Of a DNA stretch of 28,109 bases, positions 9,787 to 16,392 are shown piece by piece. The stretch lies in NCBI GenBank assembly GCA_964359525.1, contig CAYHTH010000001.1, positions 1 through 28,109 on the forward strand, read 5' to 3'. Made by a program: the position numbers and the translations under genes. The notes under the pieces are model-generated. The model saw only the letters and a program-made list of their open reading frames with translations, searched no databases and was not told the origin of the DNA. Numbering within the stretch: the first letter of the stretch is position 1; each line of letters opens with the position of its first letter. Source of the stretch: an uncultured Methanosarcinales archaeon (GTDB taxonomy: Archaea > Nanobdellota > Nanobdellia > Woesearchaeales > GW2011-AR4).

Positions 9787-10422
9787 ATGTCATCAAAAGA
9801 GCATTTAATTGAGCATTGGACTTCTTTAGGCACAATAAAAGACAAAAAAGTAATAGAAGCATTCAGAAAAGTCCCGAGAGATGCATTCCTAAAAGACAGA
9901 AAAGAAGAGGCTTACGGAGATTACCCTCTTCCGATCGGGGAAGGCCAGACAATTTCCCAGCCTACGACTGTAATGCTGATGACAGAGGCATTGGAATTGA
10001 AAGAAGGCCATAAAGTTCTTGAAGTCGGCTCTGGCTCAGGTTATCAGGCAGCAATTATATCAAAGATTATAGGAAACAAAGGAAAATTAATTTCAACAGA
10101 GATAATTCCGGAATTAGCTGAATTTGCAAAAAACAATATTAAGAAATTAAAAATAAAAAATATAGAAATAATAAAGCATGACGGCTCAAAAGGCTATGCA
10201 AAAGGATCCCCTTACGACAGGATTATTGTAACTGCCGCATCTCCTGAAATTCCAAAGCCGTTAATAAAACAATTGAAAGAAAACGGAATCATAATTGTGC
10301 CGGTTGGAAATCTTATCGAACAAATAATGATAAAAGGAATTAAGAAAGACAATAGATTAATCAAAGAAGAAATTGGGCAGTTTATGTTTGTTCCTTTGAA
10401 AGGAAAATATGGCCATAGCTAA
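9787..10422 (+). CDS. pcm: Protein-L-isoaspartate O-methyltransferase
   Basis: LPIGEGQTISQP, VLEVGSGSGYQAA, PYDRIIVTAA, FMFVPL. Confidence 0.96.
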   Translation: MSSKEHLIEHWTSLGTIKDKKVIEAFRKVPRDAFLKDRKEEAYGDYPLPIGEGQTISQPTTVMLMTEALELKEGHKVLEVGSGSGYQAAIISKIIGNKGKLISTEIIPELAEFAKNNIKKLKIKNIEIIKHDGSKGYAKGSPYDRIIVTAASPEIPKPLIKQLKENGIIIVPVGNLIEQIMIKGIKKDNRLIKEEIGQFMFVPLKGKYGHS

Positions 10423-11402
10423 ATTTTCTTCTTGATAATTTTAACCCTGAATTTTTTCATTATTTTCATCGCTTCTTTGTAGCTCAGCAGAATATTTTTA
10501 GCGCCATAATGCGATACAACAGACTGCGCGTTTATAATTCCAAGCTTGATTGCAAATTCTGTGTCCTTATTTTTCAAAAGCCCGCATAAAAATGAAGATG
10601 CAAAAGCGTCTCCTGCCCCGGTTGCGTCAACTATTCTTACCGGAGGCGGAAATGCAGAATAAATGTGCAAATCATCAATTACATATAAATTATTTTTTCC
10701 GTCTGTTATAACGGCAATTTTTGGCCCAAGCCTTTTGAGCTTGACAAGAAGATTGTCAAATGAATCCCTGCCGACGAGCAGTTCAGCTTCCTCTTTGTTC
10801 AAAATTAATAATTCCGTTTTGCTTAAGATATTTTTCAGATATCTGCTTCCTTTTTCAGCAAGATAAGTGCTTGGGTTAAATGCTATTTTTATTTTATTTT
10901 TTTGTGCAAATTCAGCAATTTTTTCTAAAGTATGAAAAGACTCGCCCATCATTGCGCTGAAATAAAACCATTTTGTCTTCAATTTTCTGAACGGAATATC
11001 TTCAGCTTTCAATTCGTCATTGATCCCTTTGTAAGCCAAAATTGTCCTGTCATGGTCCAGAGCATCTAAAATAATCGAATAGCCGGCATTTCCTTTTCCA
11101 TGCGCGCACAATAAATCAATTTTCTCATTCATCAAATTTTTATGTATGAAATCCGAATTTGTGCCTTCCCCCAATTTTCCGAGAAATCCGACTTTATGCC
11201 CGAGCCTTGACAAAGCAACAGCAGTATTCGTGCCTCCGCCTCCGGCAGTGAATTCCAAATCATCTATCAGTATTTTCGACCCGCTTGGAAACGCAAGCAA
11301 ATCAGTTTCCCCTTTAGGGTCTATTATCTTTATCAGTTCTGAGAAATGCGTTTTCGCGAAAACATCGACAGTAGCGCTGCCAACTGTAATTACATCGTAC
11401 AT
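10419..11402 (-). CDS. PfkB/ribokinase-family carbohydrate kinase
   Basis: GGGGTNTAVALSRLG and DATGAGDAF PfkB signatures. ATG at 11402 (track start TTG 11411). Confidence 0.92.
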   Translation of the reverse strand: MYDVITVGSATVDVFAKTHFSELIKIIDPKGETDLLAFPSGSKILIDDLEFTAGGGGTNTAVALSRLGHKVGFLGKLGEGTNSDFIHKNLMNEKIDLLCAHGKGNAGYSIILDALDHDRTILAYKGINDELKAEDIPFRKLKTKWFYFSAMMGESFHTLEKIAEFAQKNKIKIAFNPSTYLAEKGSRYLKNILSKTELLILNKEEAELLVGRDSFDNLLVKLKRLGPKIAVITDGKNNLYVIDDLHIYSAFPPPVRIVDATGAGDAFASSFLCGLLKNKDTEFAIKLGIINAQSVVSHYGAKNILLSYKEAMKIMKKFRVKIIKKKI

Positions 11403-11452
11403 AAATTTCAACTTGAATTAGCAGTTTATATAGTTTGTTGTTTTTAAATTTC

Positions 11453-12490
11453 TCAAAAACTTATCTTATCCAGAATTTCATGCGCATTTGCTGCGTTCAA
11501 ATATTTCTCAATATTTTTGTTTCTCAATTTTACCAAAAACATTGTTTTCAGCGATTCTTTTTCCTGATTTGAAGCCCGTGCAATTCTGTCAGCTTCAACC
11601 AGCCCGTAAGGATAGCCGACAAATATCGGGTCGCAGCAGTTTGATGCAATTTCATTTATTACTTCCTCCGCCGCCATTTTCTGCACATTAAATATTTCAA
11701 GCCTGAAAACGTGTTTTGATTTTGCATTGAACTTTGCAAAAAACATTTCTGCTTTATGATTATAGCTGTTTATTTCAGCAATCGGATGGTAAAACCACAC
11801 CGGAAGTTTTGAAATGCTCATCAGCACAGCGCTCAAAAGATTTCCATTATCTGTAAACAAAGAATTTGTCTTGCTGATTGCACTTAGAATGACATTATTT
11901 TTAGTGCAGGATTCATACAAATCATTCAAATATTTATTTTCATTGGTCATGGTGCTTTGAAGGTTTCCATCCAGAACTATAACATCAGCCGATTTGCTGT
12001 CGCTTACTGATTTGGCCATTTTAAGCTCGACAAACCTCCTTATCGCATTGGCTGCGCTGCTTATCTCCGCCCGGTTTATCCCGTTCATCAGAGTGTGGTC
12101 AAAAGAGCTGAAAGACATTTCATCAATATTTATTAAATTTCCTGCGCTGAAAAAAGATGCCTGGTAGCATATCTCATTATTTTCATTTACCGCTTTGATA
12201 AAAGCAAAAATATCAAATTTTTTCGCATTTATTTTTTTATTGTTTTGGTAAATAACACAGCAAACTCTTATCAAATTAAGCGAAAAATTAGCAGAGCCTA
12301 TTATTTCAGCATTTCCGCCGTCAACAAAAGCAATTTTTTTATAAGAATTTGATTTTTTTATTTCATGAAAATTTTTAACGTCAATCTTATACGCGCGGTA
12401 TCCTTCCCCGGAAAATTTAGGATACATCTCCGTCAATAAGGATTTTTCATCTATGGATTCCAGAATCTTCTCAATGACTTCGTCGAACAT
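11453..12490 (-). CDS. nurA: NurA-family nuclease
   Basis: AFVDGGN, VLDGNL, ISKT and GYPYGLVEADRIAR match the NurA motif order. Confidence 0.8.
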   Translation of the reverse strand: MFDEVIEKILESIDEKSLLTEMYPKFSGEGYRAYKIDVKNFHEIKKSNSYKKIAFVDGGNAEIIGSANFSLNLIRVCCVIYQNNKKINAKKFDIFAFIKAVNENNEICYQASFFSAGNLINIDEMSFSSFDHTLMNGINRAEISSAANAIRRFVELKMAKSVSDSKSADVIVLDGNLQSTMTNENKYLNDLYESCTKNNVILSAISKTNSLFTDNGNLLSAVLMSISKLPVWFYHPIAEINSYNHKAEMFFAKFNAKSKHVFRLEIFNVQKMAAEEVINEIASNCCDPIFVGYPYGLVEADRIARASNQEKESLKTMFLVKLRNKNIEKYLNAANAHEILDKISF

Positions 12491-12530: not shown

Positions 12531-13523
12531 CTAAACTCCGTAAACTGTCTGCCTTGCGTCGCTGAAATGAGGCGTATTATCAATCAGCTCTTTGTTCATC
12601 AGCAGGGCAAGGGCATATCTCACAGTTCTTTCCGGCAGAAGGGAAGCATCTATCAAATCTTTTTGTGTCATGTTTCCTTCGTGCGCTAATATTTTATAAA
12701 CGAGCTTTGCGCTTGCCGGCAAATCTTTCAGCTTGCTTATATTTGTGTGGATAGTCCTTTTTTTCAGCCTGCTTTCCAGCTGGTATTCCTTCGAGAAAAT
12801 CACAAAATTTGCGCCGTAAGGCGATTTCTCAATTATTAATTCGCCAGAATGCACAGGCATTCTCACTTCTCCATCAATTATTAATGTTGGATTAGACCCT
12901 TCAATATCTTTGATTTTTATTTTTGTGTTATCTGACACAACAAGCGGGGAATGCTTTTCAAGAGAGGAAATGGAAGTTATGGTAAAAATATTCGGCTCAT
13001 CCAAAACAATTGGGCCTCCGGCAGACAAGGAATATCCGGTGCTTCCAGTCGGTGTAGCAACAACTATCCCATCGCTTGAATCCCTCCGAAATATTTCATC
13101 ATTTAATACCAAAGAATACTCAAGCAGCGACGCGCTTTTTGATGAAAACAAGCCGATATCATTTAGCGCAATAGAAGTTGTTATTTTATCGAACCTTGCA
13201 ATCAGTCTTGACCTCTTAAAAATTGTATACTTTTTTTTCTTTATCAGGTTAAGATAATGCTTCAAATTAAGCGCATTTGCCTGTGCAAGAAAACTTTGGC
13301 TTGATCCGGCAGCAAAAAGGGGAATCTGCGATTTTCCAAGCTTCCTGAATGTTTCAAGAATAAATCTGTCATCCCCGATCGCTATTGCAATCTCATATTC
13401 ATTTTTTGCTGCGGTAATTTCTTTTTCAAAATCATATTTCAGCTTGTTTTCTCTCAGATAAGATAATGCAATTTTTGCAAGTTCTGCTGATTGCCTGTCC
13501 GCCTTGGAGATTACAAGATACAT
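12531..13523 (-). CDS. NAD-kinase-like domain fused to a C-terminal winged HTH
   Basis: ALNDIG, DGIVVATPTGSTGYSLSAGGP, IDGE are NAD kinase motifs; GDDRF stands where GGDGT is expected; C-terminal LPASAKLVYKILAHEGNMTQKDLIDASLLPERTVRYALALL...DARQTVY is a winged HTH. Confidence 0.88.
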   Translation of the reverse strand: MYLVISKADRQSAELAKIALSYLRENKLKYDFEKEITAAKNEYEIAIAIGDDRFILETFRKLGKSQIPLFAAGSSQSFLAQANALNLKHYLNLIKKKKYTIFKRSRLIARFDKITTSIALNDIGLFSSKSASLLEYSLVLNDEIFRRDSSDGIVVATPTGSTGYSLSAGGPIVLDEPNIFTITSISSLEKHSPLVVSDNTKIKIKDIEGSNPTLIIDGEVRMPVHSGELIIEKSPYGANFVIFSKEYQLESRLKKRTIHTNISKLKDLPASAKLVYKILAHEGNMTQKDLIDASLLPERTVRYALALLMNKELIDNTPHFSDARQTVYGV

Positions 13524-13567
13524 ACGGCAGAGTAAAATAAATTAATTAATATATCTTTCTATTTATA

Positions 13568-13580
13568 GGCAAAATTTGCC
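13568..13580. promoter_or_regulatory. Palindrome GGCAAA-A-TTTGCC, candidate operator in the divergent NADK-HTH/nadA promoter region
   Basis: Perfect 6-bp arms abutting minus-strand TATAAAT (13561-13567). Confidence 0.4.
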
Positions 13581-13653
13581 GCTTTTTATGATTCTTAATA
13601 ATTACATTGCCTCTTCAATTAGATATATAAATAGGATAACTCTAACCGGGTTA

Positions 13654-14601
13654 ATGGAAAGCAGATTAATGGCGGAAACTATAATGCAGGATGAGCAGAA
13701 GCTTATAGACTTGGTTCTGGAACTAAAAAAACAGAGAAATGCAGTAATTCTCGTCCATAACTATCAAAGGCCAGAAATGTTCAAAATTGCCGATTATATG
13801 GGAGACTCTCTCGGATTGTCTGTCGCAGCTGCAAAAACCGAAGCCGATGTAATTCTTTTTTGCGGCGTTAAATTCATGGCTGAAACTGCAAAAGTTCTCA
13901 GCCCGGGCAAAATAGTTTTACTGCCGAATCTTGATGCAGGATGCTCGCTCGCAGATATGGCAACTGTTGAAAAATTAAAAGAAGTAAAAAAGCAGTATCC
14001 GGATGCTGCCGTTGTAAGTTATGTCAATACAACTGCAGAGGTAAAGGCAATTTCAGACATTTGCTGCACTTCTGCCAATGCAGTTGAAGTTGTAAATTCA
14101 CTGCCAAACAAACGAGTTATATTCCTTCCGGACAAGAATCTCGGAAGATACGTGCAGGAGCACACCGATAAAGAAATAATTTTATGGGACGGCTATTGTT
14201 TTGTGCACGACAATCTTGATGCAAACACTTTGATAGAATTCAAGCAGAGATACCCTGACGCTAAAATAATCGCGCATCCTGAATGCAAAGATGAATTATT
14301 AAAATTATCAGATCACATCTGCGGCACAGGAGGCATGGCTAAGTTTGCAAAATCCGACGGCTCCAAGAATTTTATTGTAGTAACAGAATGCGGCATGACC
14401 GATAAATTAAGGCAGGACGTTCCTGAAAAAAATTTCCTTTCCTTCTGCAATGTATGCCCGTACATGAAATCTACAACTCTTCCATTAGTTGCCAGGGCAC
14501 TGATTACAAACCAAAATGAGATAACTCTGCCAGAAAATATAATAAGAGGCGCGCGAAAAGCAATAGACAGGATGCTGGCAGTTTCGAAAAATGCTGCCTA
14601 G
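13654..14601 (+). CDS. nadA: Quinolinate synthase
   Basis: VHNYQ, CGVKFMAE, AGCSLA, CCTSANA, GYCFVH, HPEC, CPYMK. ATG 13654 lies ~25 nt after GATATATAAA; 13669 or 13684 are alternatives. Confidence 0.96.
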   Translation: MESRLMAETIMQDEQKLIDLVLELKKQRNAVILVHNYQRPEMFKIADYMGDSLGLSVAAAKTEADVILFCGVKFMAETAKVLSPGKIVLLPNLDAGCSLADMATVEKLKEVKKQYPDAAVVSYVNTTAEVKAISDICCTSANAVEVVNSLPNKRVIFLPDKNLGRYVQEHTDKEIILWDGYCFVHDNLDANTLIEFKQRYPDAKIIAHPECKDELLKLSDHICGTGGMAKFAKSDGSKNFIVVTECGMTDKLRQDVPEKNFLSFCNVCPYMKSTTLPLVARALITNQNEITLPENIIRGARKAIDRMLAVSKNAA

Positions 14602-15607
14602 AGATATAGCCGACCAACAAAATCAGTTGACCAATAGTGTTGGCCGGCTAGATAGCGAATCACAGCAAATTCATTCAATTAATTCTGCGATTCGCTATAA
14701 GCTGGTTCTTGAATTCTGGGACAGACATAAGGAATTAAGTATAAAAAATAAAGATTATAGAGAATTTGTTAATAGTCTAATTAGAATCCTACTTAAACAA
14801 GATATCAATAAAGGAGATGCAACAACAAATTCATTAATAAAAAGCAAGAATATTAGCGCAGTAGTTGTTGCAAAAGAAGACGGAATATTGGCTGGCTTGG
14901 AAGAATTTTCTTTGATTAACAAAGATTTAAAATTAAAATTTTTTAAGAAAGATGGGGGTAAAATAAAAGAAGGAGAAATATTGCTGGAAATAAACGGAGA
15001 TTCCGGAAAGATTCTTGAAAGAGAAAGGGTTTTATTAAATTTGCTGCAAAGAATGAGCGGCATTTCAACATTAGTTTCAAAACTAAATAAAGAATTAAAA
15101 AATAAAATAAAATTGGCTGCAACCAGAAAAACTTTATGGGGTTTGCTTGATAAAAAAGCAGTCAGCATCGGCGGTGGATTGACGCACAGGCTAAATTTAA
15201 ATGACAGAATTATAATAAAAGAAAATCATCTAAAAATTCTTGGCAATAATATAGGAAATGTAATTAATTCAGTTAAATTCAAATCAAAATATATTGAAAT
15301 TGAAGTCGAGGATAAAAAACAAGCTTTTACAGCGGCAAAAGCAATAACAAAAATCATGGAAAATAAAAAACTCAGAAACAATCAAATTTTTGCTATGATG
15401 TTTGATAAAATTCCACCGGAAGAAATTAAATCAATAATTAATAAGTTTAAAAATGAAAGAATATATGATAAAATTTTATTTGAAGCATCTGGAAATATAA
15501 ATGAGAATAATCTAACAAATTACATAGATTGCGGAGTGGATATTATTTCCATGGGCTCGATGACAAACTCTGCAAAAATACTGAATATGTCGCTTGAAAT
15601 CGGATGA
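14591..15607 (+). CDS. nadC: Nicotinate-nucleotide pyrophosphorylase (quinolinate phosphoribosyltransferase) with extended N-terminus
   Basis: GDATT, ERVLLNLLQRMSGIST, ATRKT, HRLNLND, IKENH, EVE, EASGNI, SMGSMT. Confidence 0.93.
   Translation: MLPRDIADQQNQLTNSVGRLDSESQQIHSINSAIRYKLVLEFWDRHKELSIKNKDYREFVNSLIRILLKQDINKGDATTNSLIKSKNISAVVVAKEDGILAGLEEFSLINKDLKLKFFKKDGGKIKEGEILLEINGDSGKILERERVLLNLLQRMSGISTLVSKLNKELKNKIKLAATRKTLWGLLDKKAVSIGGGLTHRLNLNDRIIIKENHLKILGNNIGNVINSVKFKSKYIEIEVEDKKQAFTAAKAITKIMENKKLRNNQIFAMMFDKIPPEEIKSIINKFKNERIYDKILFEASGNINENNLTNYIDCGVDIISMGSMTNSAKILNMSLEIG
14606..14698. repeat. Tandem-hairpin element, copy in the nadC 5' region
   Basis: TAGCCGACCAACA 14607-14619 / TGTTGGCCGGCTA 14638-14650 (13 bp, one A-C, 18-nt loop); ATAGCGAATCACAG 14652-14665 / CTGCGATTCGCTAT 14685-14698 (14 bp, one A-C, 19-nt loop); 93 nt; starts with ATAG. 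Confidence 0.85.
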
Positions 15608-16392
15608 AAGCAGGAATAATTGGCTGCGGATTTATTGGAACAGAAGTTGCAGAATTCGTTGATAAAGACGATTCTTTTGATTTAGTTGGATTAAACGATG
15701 TTGACAAAAACAAAGTTGATGAATTGATAAAAAAATTAAATAAAAAGCCAGCGTTTATGGGCATTGACGGGTTAATAAAAAATTCAGATTTAATAATTGA
15801 ATCGGCAACCAAAAATGTAATTGAGTCGATATTAAAAAATGAAAATCTTGACAAAAAAGGCAAGAAGCTGCTGATAATGAGCACCGGTGGGCTGATTAAT
15901 AATCTGGATTTATTAAGCAAAATAAAAAATTGCGAAATATTGCTCCCTTCAGGGGCTATTGCCGGATTAGATGCTATTAAGTCTGTTTCAGGAAAAATAA
16001 AATCATTAAGTTTAACGACAACAAAGCCTGTAAGGGGATTAGAAGGCGCGCCTTATATTGTTAACAATAAAATTGATTTAAGTAAATTAAAAGACAAAAA
16101 AGTAATTTTTGAAGGGGATTTAAAGGAAGCTGTTGCCGGATTTCCGCAAAACATAAACGTGGCTGCAACATTATTTTTGGCATCAAAATTTGAAAATATC
16201 AAAGTAAAAATTGTTGCAGATTCTGATACAAAATTCAATACTCACGAAATAGAAGTCATCGGAGAGTTTGGAATTATAAAAACAACAACACAGAATCTTC
16301 CGAGCAAAAATCCAAAAACAAGTTATTTGGCCTTATTGAGCGCAATACAGACGATAAAAAATCTGAAAAATAACATAAAAGTGGGAAATTAA
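15604..16392 (+). CDS. nadX: L-aspartate dehydrogenase
   Basis: GIIGCGFIG Rossmann motif, LPSGAIAGLD, FPQNINVAA, NTHEI, NPKTSYLALLS; 4-nt overlap with nadC. Confidence 0.93.
   Translation: MKAGIIGCGFIGTEVAEFVDKDDSFDLVGLNDVDKNKVDELIKKLNKKPAFMGIDGLIKNSDLIIESATKNVIESILKNENLDKKGKKLLIMSTGGLINNLDLLSKIKNCEILLPSGAIAGLDAIKSVSGKIKSLSLTTTKPVRGLEGAPYIVNNKIDLSKLKDKKVIFEGDLKEAVAGFPQNINVAATLFLASKFENIKVKIVADSDTKFNTHEIEVIGEFGIIKTTTQNLPSKNPKTSYLALLSAIQTIKNLKNNIKVGN

What the first reader, a model, noticed from the sequence alone, without database searches (positions are those of the whole stretch)
12531..13523. NAD-kinase-like domain with degenerate GGDG motif fused to a winged HTH, divergent from nadA-nadC-nadX: candidate NAD-sensing transcription factor
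Seen: GDDRF (GDDR at 13365-13376) replaces GGDGT, keeping the Asp but losing two glycines; AAGSSQSFL replaces the GIN.G.LGFL motif; ND, DG, TPTGSTGY and GGP are intact; the last ~70 aa form a winged HTH; the gene is head-to-head with the de novo NAD operon across ~130 bp. Known: GGDG is needed for NAD kinase catalysis and the retained motifs contribute to dinucleotide binding; described NAD regulators (NadR, NiaR, NrtR, Rex) use other sensor folds. Inference: a pseudo-kinase repurposed as a NAD(P) sensor that controls the nad operon. NADK-HTH fusions may already exist in databases annotated simply as kinases.
Basis: partly seen in the sequence, partly recalled or inferred. Interest (0 to 1): 0.78.

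Follow-up and report, generated by a model that had tools for sequence, protein, structure and literature searches.

The report
NAD-kinase-derived regulator of NAD synthesis
An archaeal gene encodes an NAD-kinase look-alike that has lost the kinase's catalytic signature but gained a DNA-binding domain, and comparative genomics indicates it is a previously undescribed NAD(P)-sensing transcription factor that controls the neighbouring NAD-biosynthesis operon through a palindromic operator conserved across several archaeal phyla.

Summary
ORF 12531-13523(-) in a Woesearchaeote (DPANN) encodes a 330-aa protein with a confident NAD-kinase fold, a linker and a MarR/TrmB-type winged HTH. It lies head-to-head with nadA-nadC-nadX across 130 bp. 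GGDG reads GDDR. The aligned catalytic Asp is Asn in 37 of 120 close orthologues and absent in other relatives, while the NAD-recognition motifs are invariant.

- The genome holds a second, standalone NADK paralogue with an intact GGDGT. The same pairing occurs in Bathyarchaeota and Thorarchaeota. A canonical-GGDGT fusion in a Micrarchaeote is that genome's only NADK.
- Fusions from at least eight lineages (Nanoarchaeota, Bathyarchaeota, a Thorarchaeote and a second, apparently Asgard, genome, Thermoplasmatota) lie next to nadA/nadC/nadX. One group abuts the salvage gene pncB instead.
- A 13-bp palindrome, GGCAA-N3-TTGCC (window 13568-13580), sits at the fusion's promoter across these phyla. 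It stays with the fusion where nad genes are lost and with nadA where the fusion is unlinked. It is missing from 11 nadA loci in genomes without the fusion.

No paper describing this family was found. Databases call it "NAD(+)/NADH kinase". An earlier first-stage note of this scan (e1-4807329) recorded the same architecture in another genome. All evidence is computational. Effector, sign of regulation and loss of kinase activity are untested.

The parts
12531..13523 (-). Gene for the 330-aa NADK-like / winged-HTH fusion protein (stop codon 12531-12533)
   Evidence: ORF; Pfam/NCBIfam; AF2 model pLDDT 93.2; Foldseek top hits are NAD kinases, E 1e-23
12789..13523 (-). NAD-kinase-fold sensor domain (residues 1-245)
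   Evidence: Aligned to PDB NADKs 4hao, 2an1, 7mh7, 1suw; TM-score about 0.8 normalised to the target
13365..13376 (-). GDDR (res 50-53) in place of the GGDG catalytic / phosphate-binding motif
   Evidence: The family consensus is G-D-[D82/N37]-[K/R]-F
13287..13313 (-). AAGSSQSFL (res 71-79) in place of GxNxGxLGFL. It is a new motif, conserved in orthologues (S74, Q76, S77, F78, L79)
13158..13163 (-). N121-D122, the NE/D short motif that recognises NAD. N121 is invariant in all 64 fusions
   Evidence: motif role from PMC9763689
13011..13073 (-). D151-G152 ... TPTGSTGYSLSAGGP (res 151-171), conserved region II for NAD binding. It is invariant in orthologues
   Evidence: motif role from PMC9763689
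12720..12788 (-). Flexible linker (res 246-268), low pLDDT
12534..12719 (-). MarR/TrmB-type winged HTH (res 269-330). The recognition helix is res 298-310, ERTVRYALALLMN (12594-12632)
13568..13580 (.). Candidate operator: palindrome GGCAAAATTTGCC (GGCAA-N3-TTGCC)
   Evidence: Conserved upstream of fusion genes in Nanoarchaeota, Bathyarchaeota and Thorarchaeota. Present upstream of the unlinked nadA in G364. Absent from 11 nadA loci in genomes without the fusion. Five exact sites in the 1.085-Mb genome
13559..13567 (-). TATA-like box of the fusion gene (TATAAATAG on the minus strand). The palindrome directly abuts it, at the BRE position
   Evidence: Sequence. The promoter assignment is inferred
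13606..13613 (+). Conserved half-site ATTGCCTC ((A/T)TTGCC(T/G)), 10 nt upstream of the nadA TATA box
   Evidence: Conserved in L005, L008, L138, L174, L052, L170, L173, L172 and L227
13623..13633 (+). TATA-like box of nadA (ATATATAAATA), about 25 nt upstream of the nadA ATG
   Evidence: Sequence; inferred
13654..14601 (+). nadA, quinolinate synthase (predicted target)
   Evidence: Pfam NadA E 1.5e-118; NCBIfam equivalog above cut-off
14591..15607 (+). nadC, quinolinate phosphoribosyltransferase (predicted target)
   Evidence: TIGR00078 at 207.7 bits, above its cut-off
15604..16392 (+). nadX, L-aspartate dehydrogenase (predicted target)
   Evidence: Asp_DH_C; best NCBIfam aspartate-dehydrogenase model 249 bits (cut-off 267); a subfamily model above its cut-off

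Best explanation
The gene encodes a transcription factor whose ligand-sensing domain is a former NAD kinase. The NADK-fold domain keeps the residues that recognise the NAD(P) dinucleotide. It has replaced the GGDG loop and the N-domain glycine motif needed for phosphoryl transfer, so it most likely binds NAD(H)/NADP(H) without turning it over (inferred). NADKs are oligomers, which would present paired C-terminal winged HTH domains. These would bind the palindrome GGCAA-N3-TTGCC at 13568-13580, which abuts the gene's own TATA box, and a TTGCC half-site just upstream of the nadA TATA box (inferred from comparative genomics). Dinucleotide occupancy would then set transcription of nadA-nadC-nadX and of the regulator itself. 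The most likely logic is feedback repression when the pool is full, but sign and effector are guesses. Housekeeping NADP synthesis is left to a separate 264-aa NADK paralogue with an intact GGDGT on another contig. The protein belongs to the degenerate-motif subclade of a wider archaeal NADK-wHTH fusion family. The sister subclade keeps GGDGT and is probably still a kinase.
For: Fold and motifs: the AF2 model has pLDDT 93.2 with an NADK fold plus a wHTH. The motif is GDDR, and the aligned catalytic Asp is Asn in 37 of 120 orthologues and Ser or absent in G219, G125, G396 and G439. ND and TPTGSTGY...GGP are invariant, and their roles in NAD recognition, as against the catalytic Asp, are documented in PMC9763689 and PMC9245612. 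The altered N-domain motifs are themselves conserved, which indicates selection rather than decay.

Second kinase: G000:C23 encodes a 264-aa NADK-like protein with invariant VGGDGTFLRA and ALNE. A degenerate fusion plus a standalone NADK-like gene co-occur in 7 Nanoarchaeota genomes. In a Bathyarchaeote and a Thorarchaeote the standalone NADKs were read and carry GGDGT. The canonical-GGDGT fusion in Micrarchaeote G448 is that genome's only NADK homologue.

Gene neighbourhood: fusions are divergent from, or within 2 kb of, nadA/nadC/nadX in the window, G411, G065, L181, L133 (Bathyarchaeota), L052 (Thorarchaeota), L179, L180 (Thermoplasmatota) and L135. In family f130, which has no nadA, they are tail-to-tail with NAPRTase/pncB.

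Operator: GGCAA-N3-TTGCC is exact upstream of fusions in five lineages with <=50% protein identity and has one mismatch in two more. Chance of at least 4 exact hits in 15 further lineages is about 2e-9. The site is kept at the fusion where nad genes are gone (G287, G320, G041). It is kept upstream of nadA where the fusion is unlinked (G364). It is absent, even allowing one mismatch, from 11 nadA loci of genomes without the fusion. The recognition helix RTVR[YF]AL is shared by the exact-site carriers in the window's family, L181, Bathyarchaeota and Thorarchaeota (G065 has RTVRHAL).

Phylogeny: all fusions form one clade. Degenerate motifs occur in 50 of 67 HTH-bearing representatives against 12 of 72 without HTH, and most of those 12 are short fragments inside the fusion clade.
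Against: Nothing has been tested at the bench: no DNA binding, ligand binding or kinase assay. This particular protein still has an Asp at the catalytic position and scores better against NADK models than the GGDGT paralogue does, so residual or altered kinase activity cannot be excluded. Several degenerate-motif members have neither NAD genes nor the palindrome nearby (L178, L231, G408, and the f130 promoters). In the own genome no site precedes nadE or the standalone NADK, so the predicted regulon is tiny. The palindrome abuts a TATA box and its half-sites are only 8 bp apart centre to centre, which is short for MarR-type dimers. A different factor could bind it. Many loci come from MAGs and metagenome contigs, and related lineages are not fully independent. 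The canonical-clade inference rests on one genome.
Confidence: 0.68

Rival explanations
1. Bifunctional enzyme-regulator. The protein is still an NAD kinase with an unusual GDDR loop and also a DNA-binding regulator, in the manner of RbkR, BirA or NadR.
For: D52 sits at the catalytic position, and all NAD-binding motifs are intact. The fusion family includes a GGDGT subclade that is the sole NADK in at least one genome. RbkR is an archaeal precedent for an active kinase fused to a wHTH (PMC5397151).
Against: The aligned Asp is Asn in about a third of close orthologues and Ser or absent elsewhere. Both flanking glycines and the GxNxGxLGFL motif are replaced. The PF01513 N-domain model is not reached. 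A standalone NADK-like paralogue co-occurs in the degenerate-fusion genomes examined and carries GGDGT wherever its sequence was read. This is the opposite of the mutually exclusive pattern used to argue that RbkR is bifunctional.
Confidence: 0.2
2. Ordinary NAD kinase. The C-terminal winged helix serves something other than operator binding, such as protein contacts, and the location beside nadA is pathway clustering only.
For: Databases annotate it as NAD(+)/NADH kinase. NADK belongs to the NAD(P) pathway, so clustering with nad genes could be metabolic.
Against: The catalytic motif is degenerate. A second GGDGT NADK is present. The wHTH is the most conserved part of the protein. A palindrome co-varies with the presence of the fusion, not of nadA.
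Confidence: 0.05
3. A DNA-binding regulator whose NADK-fold domain senses something other than NAD(P), for example ATP/polyP, NaAD or ADP-ribose, or which acts mainly by forming mixed oligomers with the standalone NADK. Alternatively, the palindrome is the site of a different factor.
For: The N-domain motifs have been remodelled into new conserved sequences. Some members neighbour non-NAD genes: an SSF symporter, an ABC transporter and unknown genes. In G408 and G125 the fusion lies next to or near the standalone NADK.
Against: The invariant residues are exactly those that recognise the adenine, ribose and nicotinamide of NAD. The commonest neighbours are NAD synthesis genes.
Confidence: 0.07

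Closest known systems
NAD kinase (NadK/PpnK, EC 2.7.1.23; PDB 1u0t, 7qvs, 1suw, 2i29)
   Same: Same two-domain fold (Foldseek E about 1e-23, TM about 0.8 on the target). It has the same NE/D motif and conserved region II that bind NAD.
   Different: GGDG is GDDR, and GxNxGxLGFL is replaced. The N-domain Pfam model and all NCBIfam cut-offs are missed. A C-terminal wHTH is added. A separate GGDGT NADK exists in the genome.
NADK-wHTH fusions that keep GGDGT (e.g. Ca. Norongarragalina meridionalis VVB67258.1, Micrarchaeota)
   Same: Same architecture, and the sister subclade in the tree.
   Different: They have an intact catalytic motif and are the only NADK in the one genome checked. No nad genes and no GGCAA-N3-TTGCC site lie nearby. 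One has a different 5-3-5 palindrome and a different recognition helix.
NrtR (Nudix-related transcriptional regulators of bacterial NAD metabolism)
   Same: An enzyme-derived effector domain, often catalytically impaired, is fused to a C-terminal wHTH and controls NAD synthesis genes. It was also mis-annotated as the parent enzyme (PMC2330246).
   Different: The sensor fold is Nudix, not NADK. It is bacterial and has a different operator. The ADP-ribose effector is stated from my own knowledge.
RbkR (archaeal riboflavin kinase/regulator)
   Same: An archaeal cofactor-pathway kinase is fused to a MarR-type wHTH. It regulates biosynthesis genes of the same cofactor and was discovered by comparative genomics (PMC5397151).
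   Different: In RbkR the wHTH is N-terminal and the kinase is active. RbkR also replaces the standalone RibK. Here the wHTH is C-terminal, the catalytic motif is degenerate and a standalone kinase co-occurs.
NadR, NiaR, Rex, BirA, ThiR (other cofactor-sensing regulators)
   Same: They give feedback control of cofactor genes by a protein that binds the cofactor or a precursor. ThiR (own knowledge) is an archaeal regulator built on an inactivated ThiN enzyme domain.
   Different: None uses an NADK fold. NadR, NiaR and Rex are described in bacteria (own knowledge). My literature searches found no regulator of NAD biosynthesis described for Archaea.

Membership tests
NAD kinase (catalytically competent NadK/PpnK) | Two-domain NADK fold | tested here: met
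   AF2 pLDDT 93.2. Foldseek top 50 hits are all NADKs, E down to 6e-24
NAD kinase (catalytically competent NadK/PpnK) | GGDG motif bearing the catalytic Asp | tested here: not met
   The motif is GDDR. The family consensus is G-D-[D/N]-[K/R], and other subgroups read GDSF, GNSF or GSSF. Motif role from PMC9245612 and PMC9763689
NAD kinase (catalytically competent NadK/PpnK) | [quoted passage not shown] | tested here: met
   N121-D122 and T157-P171 are invariant in 120 orthologues
NAD kinase (catalytically competent NadK/PpnK) | Scores above curated family thresholds (Pfam PF01513 N-domain; NCBIfam equivalogs) | tested here: not met
   PF01513 scores 14.8 bits against a cut-off of 25.5. The best NCBIfam score is 123 bits against a cut-off of 309. 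Only PF20143, the C-domain, passes
NAD kinase (catalytically competent NadK/PpnK) | ATP/polyP-dependent phosphorylation of NAD | not testable with these tools
   Needs an enzyme assay
MarR/TrmB-type winged-HTH transcription factors | Winged helix-turn-helix fold | tested here: met
   The model shows H270-282, H287-294, H298-310 and a two-strand wing. MarR_2, HTH_24 and TrmB are hit in 38, 36 and 26 of 64 family members. In this protein HTH_24 scores only 15.9 bits, below the cut-off of 21.9
MarR/TrmB-type winged-HTH transcription factors | Palindromic operator at its own and target promoters | tested here: met
   GGCAA-N3-TTGCC is conserved across phyla and tracks the fusion gene. This is comparative inference only
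MarR/TrmB-type winged-HTH transcription factors | Sequence-specific DNA binding | not testable with these tools
   The complex-prediction job with DNA was not folded and gives no evidence
NrtR family | Nudix-like effector domain | tested here: not met
   The effector domain has an NADK fold. This is a functional analogy only
RbkR family | RibK (CTP-dependent riboflavin kinase) domain with N-terminal wHTH | tested here: not met
   The domain is NADK and the wHTH is C-terminal. This is a functional analogy only

The most novel reading that the evidence does not exclude
NADK-wHTH fusions are a pan-archaeal family of NAD(P)-sensing transcription factors, found in DPANN, Thermoproteota, Asgard and Thermoplasmatota. 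They would be the first regulators of NAD biosynthesis described in Archaea. One ancestral kinase/regulator fusion split into a still-catalytic branch and a pseudo-kinase branch that keeps only dinucleotide binding. The pseudo-kinase branch recognises the operator GGCAA-N3-TTGCC, which is conserved across phyla.
Probability: 0.55. Interest if true: 0.8.

Novelty: new variant of a known kind. Interest (0 to 1): 0.72.

Why it matters
I found no published account of how Archaea regulate NAD synthesis. The known NAD regulators (NadR, NiaR, NrtR, Rex) are bacterial and use other sensor folds. This family would add a new sensor fold, a kinase turned into a dinucleotide receptor. It comes with a ready-made operator, a defined target operon and natural 'active' and 'dead' sister clades for comparison, so the hypothesis is testable with a few proteins and oligonucleotides. 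It also corrects a systematic annotation error: hundreds of database entries named NAD(+)/NADH kinase are probably not kinases. That matters for metabolic reconstructions of reduced DPANN genomes, where presence or absence of NADK is used to infer cofactor autonomy.

Tried and rejected
- Complex prediction (two protein copies plus the 29-bp operator DNA) was accepted but not folded. It gives no evidence either way.
Only the Thorarchaeote locus L052 was useful.
- Regulon expansion in the own genome found little. There are only 5 exact palindromes, 3 of them inside ORFs. None precedes nadE (C18) or the standalone NADK (C23). One other intergenic site precedes an Asn-synthase-like PP-loop gene on C7, with no clear NAD link.
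- A pattern scan of five other fusion genomes gave 31 palindromes against 3 for a reversed control. Several hits lie in a repeated ~100-nt element or inside ORFs, so no further regulon members could be named.
- The idea that presence of the fusion simply follows presence of nadA is rejected. In the order-level sample, 22 of 121 genomes have nadA but only 2 of those carry the fusion. Several fusion genomes lack nadA.
- An NAD riboswitch or other known RNA in the intergenic region is excluded: no Rfam hit at E<=1.
- Four literature searches found no description of NADK-HTH regulators.
Full report
**1. What is in the window**

The minus-strand ORF 12531-13523 encodes 330 aa. Pfam finds only the NADK C-terminal domain (residues 121-241, E 2e-21) and a sub-threshold HTH_24 match (275-314). 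NCBIfam NADK models reach 123 bits at most, against cut-offs of 211-493. The N-domain model PF01513 scores 14.8 bits.

Alignment to solved NADKs places IAIGDDRFIL on vvvGGDGnmL and AAGSSQSFL on GxNxGxLGFL. ND, DG and TPTGSTGYSLSAGGP match the consensus.

An AlphaFold model built on 64 homologues has pLDDT 93.2. It shows an NADK fold to about residue 245, a low-confidence linker, then three helices and a two-strand wing, which is a winged HTH. The top 50 Foldseek matches to the PDB are all NAD kinases (E down to 6e-24).

The divergent genes are nadA (13654-14601), nadC and nadX. The intergenic region is 130 bp. Homologue names identify the organism as a Woesearchaeote (DPANN). The assembly is 1.085 Mb and 80.6% complete.

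**2. The motif change is a family trait, not an accident**

In 120 full-length orthologues (64-100% identity) the motif is G-D-[D 82 / N 37]-[K/R]-F. The residue aligned with the catalytic Asp is therefore not kept as an acid. N121-D122, D151-G152 and T157...P171 are invariant or nearly so, and the wHTH is the best-conserved part of the protein. The replaced N-domain motifs are themselves conserved (D51, F54, L56, S74, Q76-L79). That argues for a new function under selection rather than decay.

The literature assigns the GGDG Asp to catalysis at the ribose 2'-OH. It assigns NE/D and the Thr and Tyr of region II to recognition of adenine, ribose and nicotinamide (PMC9763689, PMC9245612). The pattern therefore fits loss of phosphoryl transfer with retained dinucleotide binding. 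This is an inference.

**3. A second NAD kinase exists**

Contig C23 of the same genome encodes a 264-aa NADK-like protein between panE and a thiL-like gene. It carries IIAVGGDGTFL, ALNE and TTPAGS. Its family is annotated NAD(+)/NADH kinase in Nanoarchaeia, Woesearchaeota and Aenigmarchaeota, and has invariant VGGDGTFLRA and ALNE.

In a 401-genome sample of the phylum, ten genomes carry a fusion. Seven of them (G000, G364, G287, G411, G320, G125, G408) also carry this short type. About 45 other genomes carry only the short type.

Outside DPANN, the Bathyarchaeote (fusion motif GGDS) and the Thorarchaeote (GSDR) each also encode a standalone NADK with GGDGT and GxNxGxxGFL. By contrast, the Micrarchaeote with a canonical-GGDGT fusion has no other NADK homologue. 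Of the other 60 Micrarchaeota genomes sampled, 41 have standalone NADKs and none has a fusion.

**4. The fusion family**

An exhaustive profile-free search found about 77 representatives (50% identity clusters) with the C-terminal wHTH among the top 150 hits. Of these:
- 17 keep GGDG
- 9 have GGDx
- 31 have GxDx
- 10 have no Asp at the aligned position
- 10 are N-terminally truncated

Among hits without an HTH, 60 have GGDG and 12 are degenerate. Most of those 12 are short fragments that fall inside the fusion clade.

A FastTree of the kinase domain (midpoint-rooted, one alignment, so indicative only) puts all fusions in one clade. It has a GGDG[TS] subclade and a larger degenerate subclade that contains the window protein.

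Named members come from Woesearchaeota, Micrarchaeota, Bathyarchaeota, Thermoprotei, Thorarchaeota and Thermoplasmatota. They are annotated as NAD kinase, 'sugar kinase' or hypothetical.

**5. Gene neighbourhood**

Close relatives share the whole block topA-nadX-nadC-nadA<>fusion-NurA-PfkB. That adds little, because the whole block is syntenic. The more distant members are informative:
- G411 (52% identity) and G065 (43%, different gene order) are divergent from nadA.
- P0125 (43%) is divergent from nadC.
- The Bathyarchaeote is divergent from nadX-nadA-nadC.
- The Thorarchaeote is divergent from nadA.
- P0134, whose neighbours look Asgard-like, is divergent from nadA.
- The Thermoplasmatote P0164 has nadA 0.9 kb downstream and nadX nearby.
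- P0151 has nadC 2 kb away.

Four genomes of family f130 have no nadA (92-100% complete). Their motifs are GDSF, GNSF and GSSF. In each, the fusion lies tail-to-tail with a 473-481-aa nicotinate phosphoribosyltransferase, the NAD salvage enzyme. A Thermoprotei member has an isochorismatase/PncA-like gene 0.8 kb upstream, which is a weak association.

No NAD genes were seen beside G041 (SSF symporter), G408, L178 or L231, nor beside the two canonical-GGDGT fusions examined. In G287 and G320 the nad operon is missing from the syntenic site and from the genome.

**6. A conserved operator**

Aligning the intergenic regions of orthologues revealed GGCAA-N3-TTGCC with a variable centre. It directly abuts the fusion's TATA box. 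A TTGCC half-site lies 25-30 nt further on, just upstream of the nadA TATA box. In the window these are the palindrome at 13568-13580, the half-site at 13606-13613, and TATA boxes at 13559-13567 and 13623-13633.

The same palindrome is exact upstream of the fusion in G411, G065, G287, G320, P0125, the Bathyarchaeote and the Thorarchaeote. It has one mismatch in G041 and P0134, and one mismatch 86 nt upstream of nadA in the Thermoplasmatote.

The own genome has 5 exact sites in 1.085 Mb, about 1e-3 per 250 bp. Four or more exact hits in 15 further lineages has a chance probability of about 2e-9. The lineages are related, so this overstates the significance somewhat.

Three controls point to the fusion as the binding protein:
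- Eleven nadA loci (40 kb) from Woesearchaeales genomes without the fusion have no site, even allowing one mismatch.
- The site stays at the fusion's promoter in genomes that have lost nadA.
- In G364 the fusion is on another contig, yet the nadA upstream region keeps the exact palindrome plus half-site plus TATA architecture.

The exact-site carriers in the window's family, P0125, the Bathyarchaeote and the Thorarchaeote share the recognition helix RTVR[YF]AL; G065 has RTVRHAL. Members without the site differ, reading RTVRSG, RTLNRT or RTTKNA. One of those, a GGDGT fusion, has a different 5-3-5 palindrome, AGCCATATTGGCT, at -58. G364 is an exception: its helix is the same as the window's (RTVRYSL), but its own 94-bp upstream region has only a degenerate match.

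Rfam finds no RNA family in 13400-13800.

**7. Mechanism proposed**

What is shown: the fold, the motif pattern, the paralogue, the synteny and the operator conservation.

What is inferred: the NADK-fold domain binds NAD(H) or NADP(H) without phosphorylating it. Its oligomer positions wHTH pairs on the palindrome and half-site. Occupancy then modulates transcription of the regulator itself and of nadA-nadC-nadX.

The palindrome occupies the BRE position of the fusion's promoter, which suggests autorepression. For nadA the palindrome lies upstream and only the half-site is promoter-proximal, so the sign of regulation is open. Feedback repression by a full NAD(P) pool is my guess, by analogy with bacterial NAD regulators. 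Whether D51 and K/R53 discriminate the 2'-phosphate is speculation.

**8. Comparison and novelty**

By fold the protein is an NADK homologue, but it fails the catalytic-motif and curated-threshold tests. I therefore do not file it as an NAD kinase.

Functionally it parallels three known regulators:
- NrtR: an enzyme-derived, often inactive Nudix domain plus a wHTH, controlling bacterial NAD genes (PMC2330246).
- RbkR: an archaeal kinase plus a wHTH that remains active (PMC5397151).
- ThiR: an archaeal regulator built on an inactivated enzyme domain (own knowledge).

The principle is known. The sensor fold, the operator and an archaeal NAD regulon appear to be new. Four full-text searches found no description. 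An earlier first-stage note of this scan (e1-4807329) recorded the same architecture in another genome and had not been followed up.

**9. Caveats**

All evidence is computational, and much of it comes from MAGs and metagenome contigs. The tree is a quick one. Several family members lack any NAD link. Residual kinase activity of this GDDR protein cannot be excluded. The complex-prediction job with DNA was not folded and counts for nothing.

Noticed in passing
G000 contig C7:4354-4366 (own genome, outside the window): This is the only other intergenic exact GGCAA-N3-TTGCC site in the genome (GGCAACTATTGCC). An ATTGCCG half-site follows 10 nt later. It lies about 90 nt upstream of a 302-aa Asn-synthase-like PP-loop protein and a DUF371 gene. 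It may be a second regulon member or chance.
   Followed up: partly
L173:5950-6798 (G320; also L144): In a same-family genome the fusion is split by a frameshift in the linker: the NADK part is 282 aa and the wHTH is in another frame. The nadA-nadC-nadX operon is missing from the syntenic site, so topA follows directly, and from the genome. This could be co-loss of regulator and target, or an assembly error in an A-rich stretch.
   Followed up: partly
L212, L217, L222 (G411) and L223 (G287), each around 1430-1590: A repeated ~100-nt intergenic element contains the same GGCAA(A/T)5TTGCC palindrome next to a GC-rich hairpin-like segment (…GAGAGCATCTGCTTAAGCGAGCTCTC…). It may be a small mobile element or an RNA. 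It inflates genome-wide counts of the motif.
   Followed up: no
G450 (Thorarchaeote genome of L052): C44:129309-129512, C39:52610-52810, C39:53068-53271, C65:9250-9489, C45:4648-4848: Five standalone small ORFs (82-126 aa) match only the wHTH part of the fusion profile (E 1e-9 to 2e-17). Free-standing relatives of the DNA-binding domain therefore exist in this Thorarchaeote genome.
   Followed up: no
L134:4930-4960 (upstream of canonical-GGDGT fusion P0190): A different 5-3-5 palindrome, AGCCATATTGGCT, lies 58 nt upstream of a GGDGT fusion whose recognition helix is RTLNRTL. This hints at co-variation of operator and helix, and at autoregulation in the catalytic subclade too.
   Followed up: no
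L165:7064-8500, L166:5254-6678, L167:7007-8428, L168:4422-5867: In four genomes without nadA, fusions with GDSF, GNSF or GSSF (no Asp at the aligned catalytic position) lie tail-to-tail with a nicotinate phosphoribosyltransferase gene. In some the 3' ends overlap by about 10 nt. No GGCAA-N3-TTGCC site was found upstream of these fusion genes.
   Followed up: partly
window 10419-12490 (-): A NurA-like nuclease gene (11453-12490) and a PfkB-family kinase gene (10419-11411) follow the fusion on the same strand, with gaps of 40 nt and 41 nt. This order is conserved in relatives, so they may be co-transcribed with the regulator.
   Followed up: no
window 14591-14700: Orthologous NadC proteins align only from residue 34-35 of the window's NadC (tblastn). 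The first ~34 codons are therefore an extension not shared by relatives. This agrees with the separate first-stage note of an in-frame insertion at 14606-14698.
   Followed up: no
window 13576-13653: The mechanical ORF list starts nadA at a TTG at 13576, which would overlap the operator and both TATA boxes. Orthologues begin at the equivalent of ATG 13654, and this is the start used here.
   Followed up: yes
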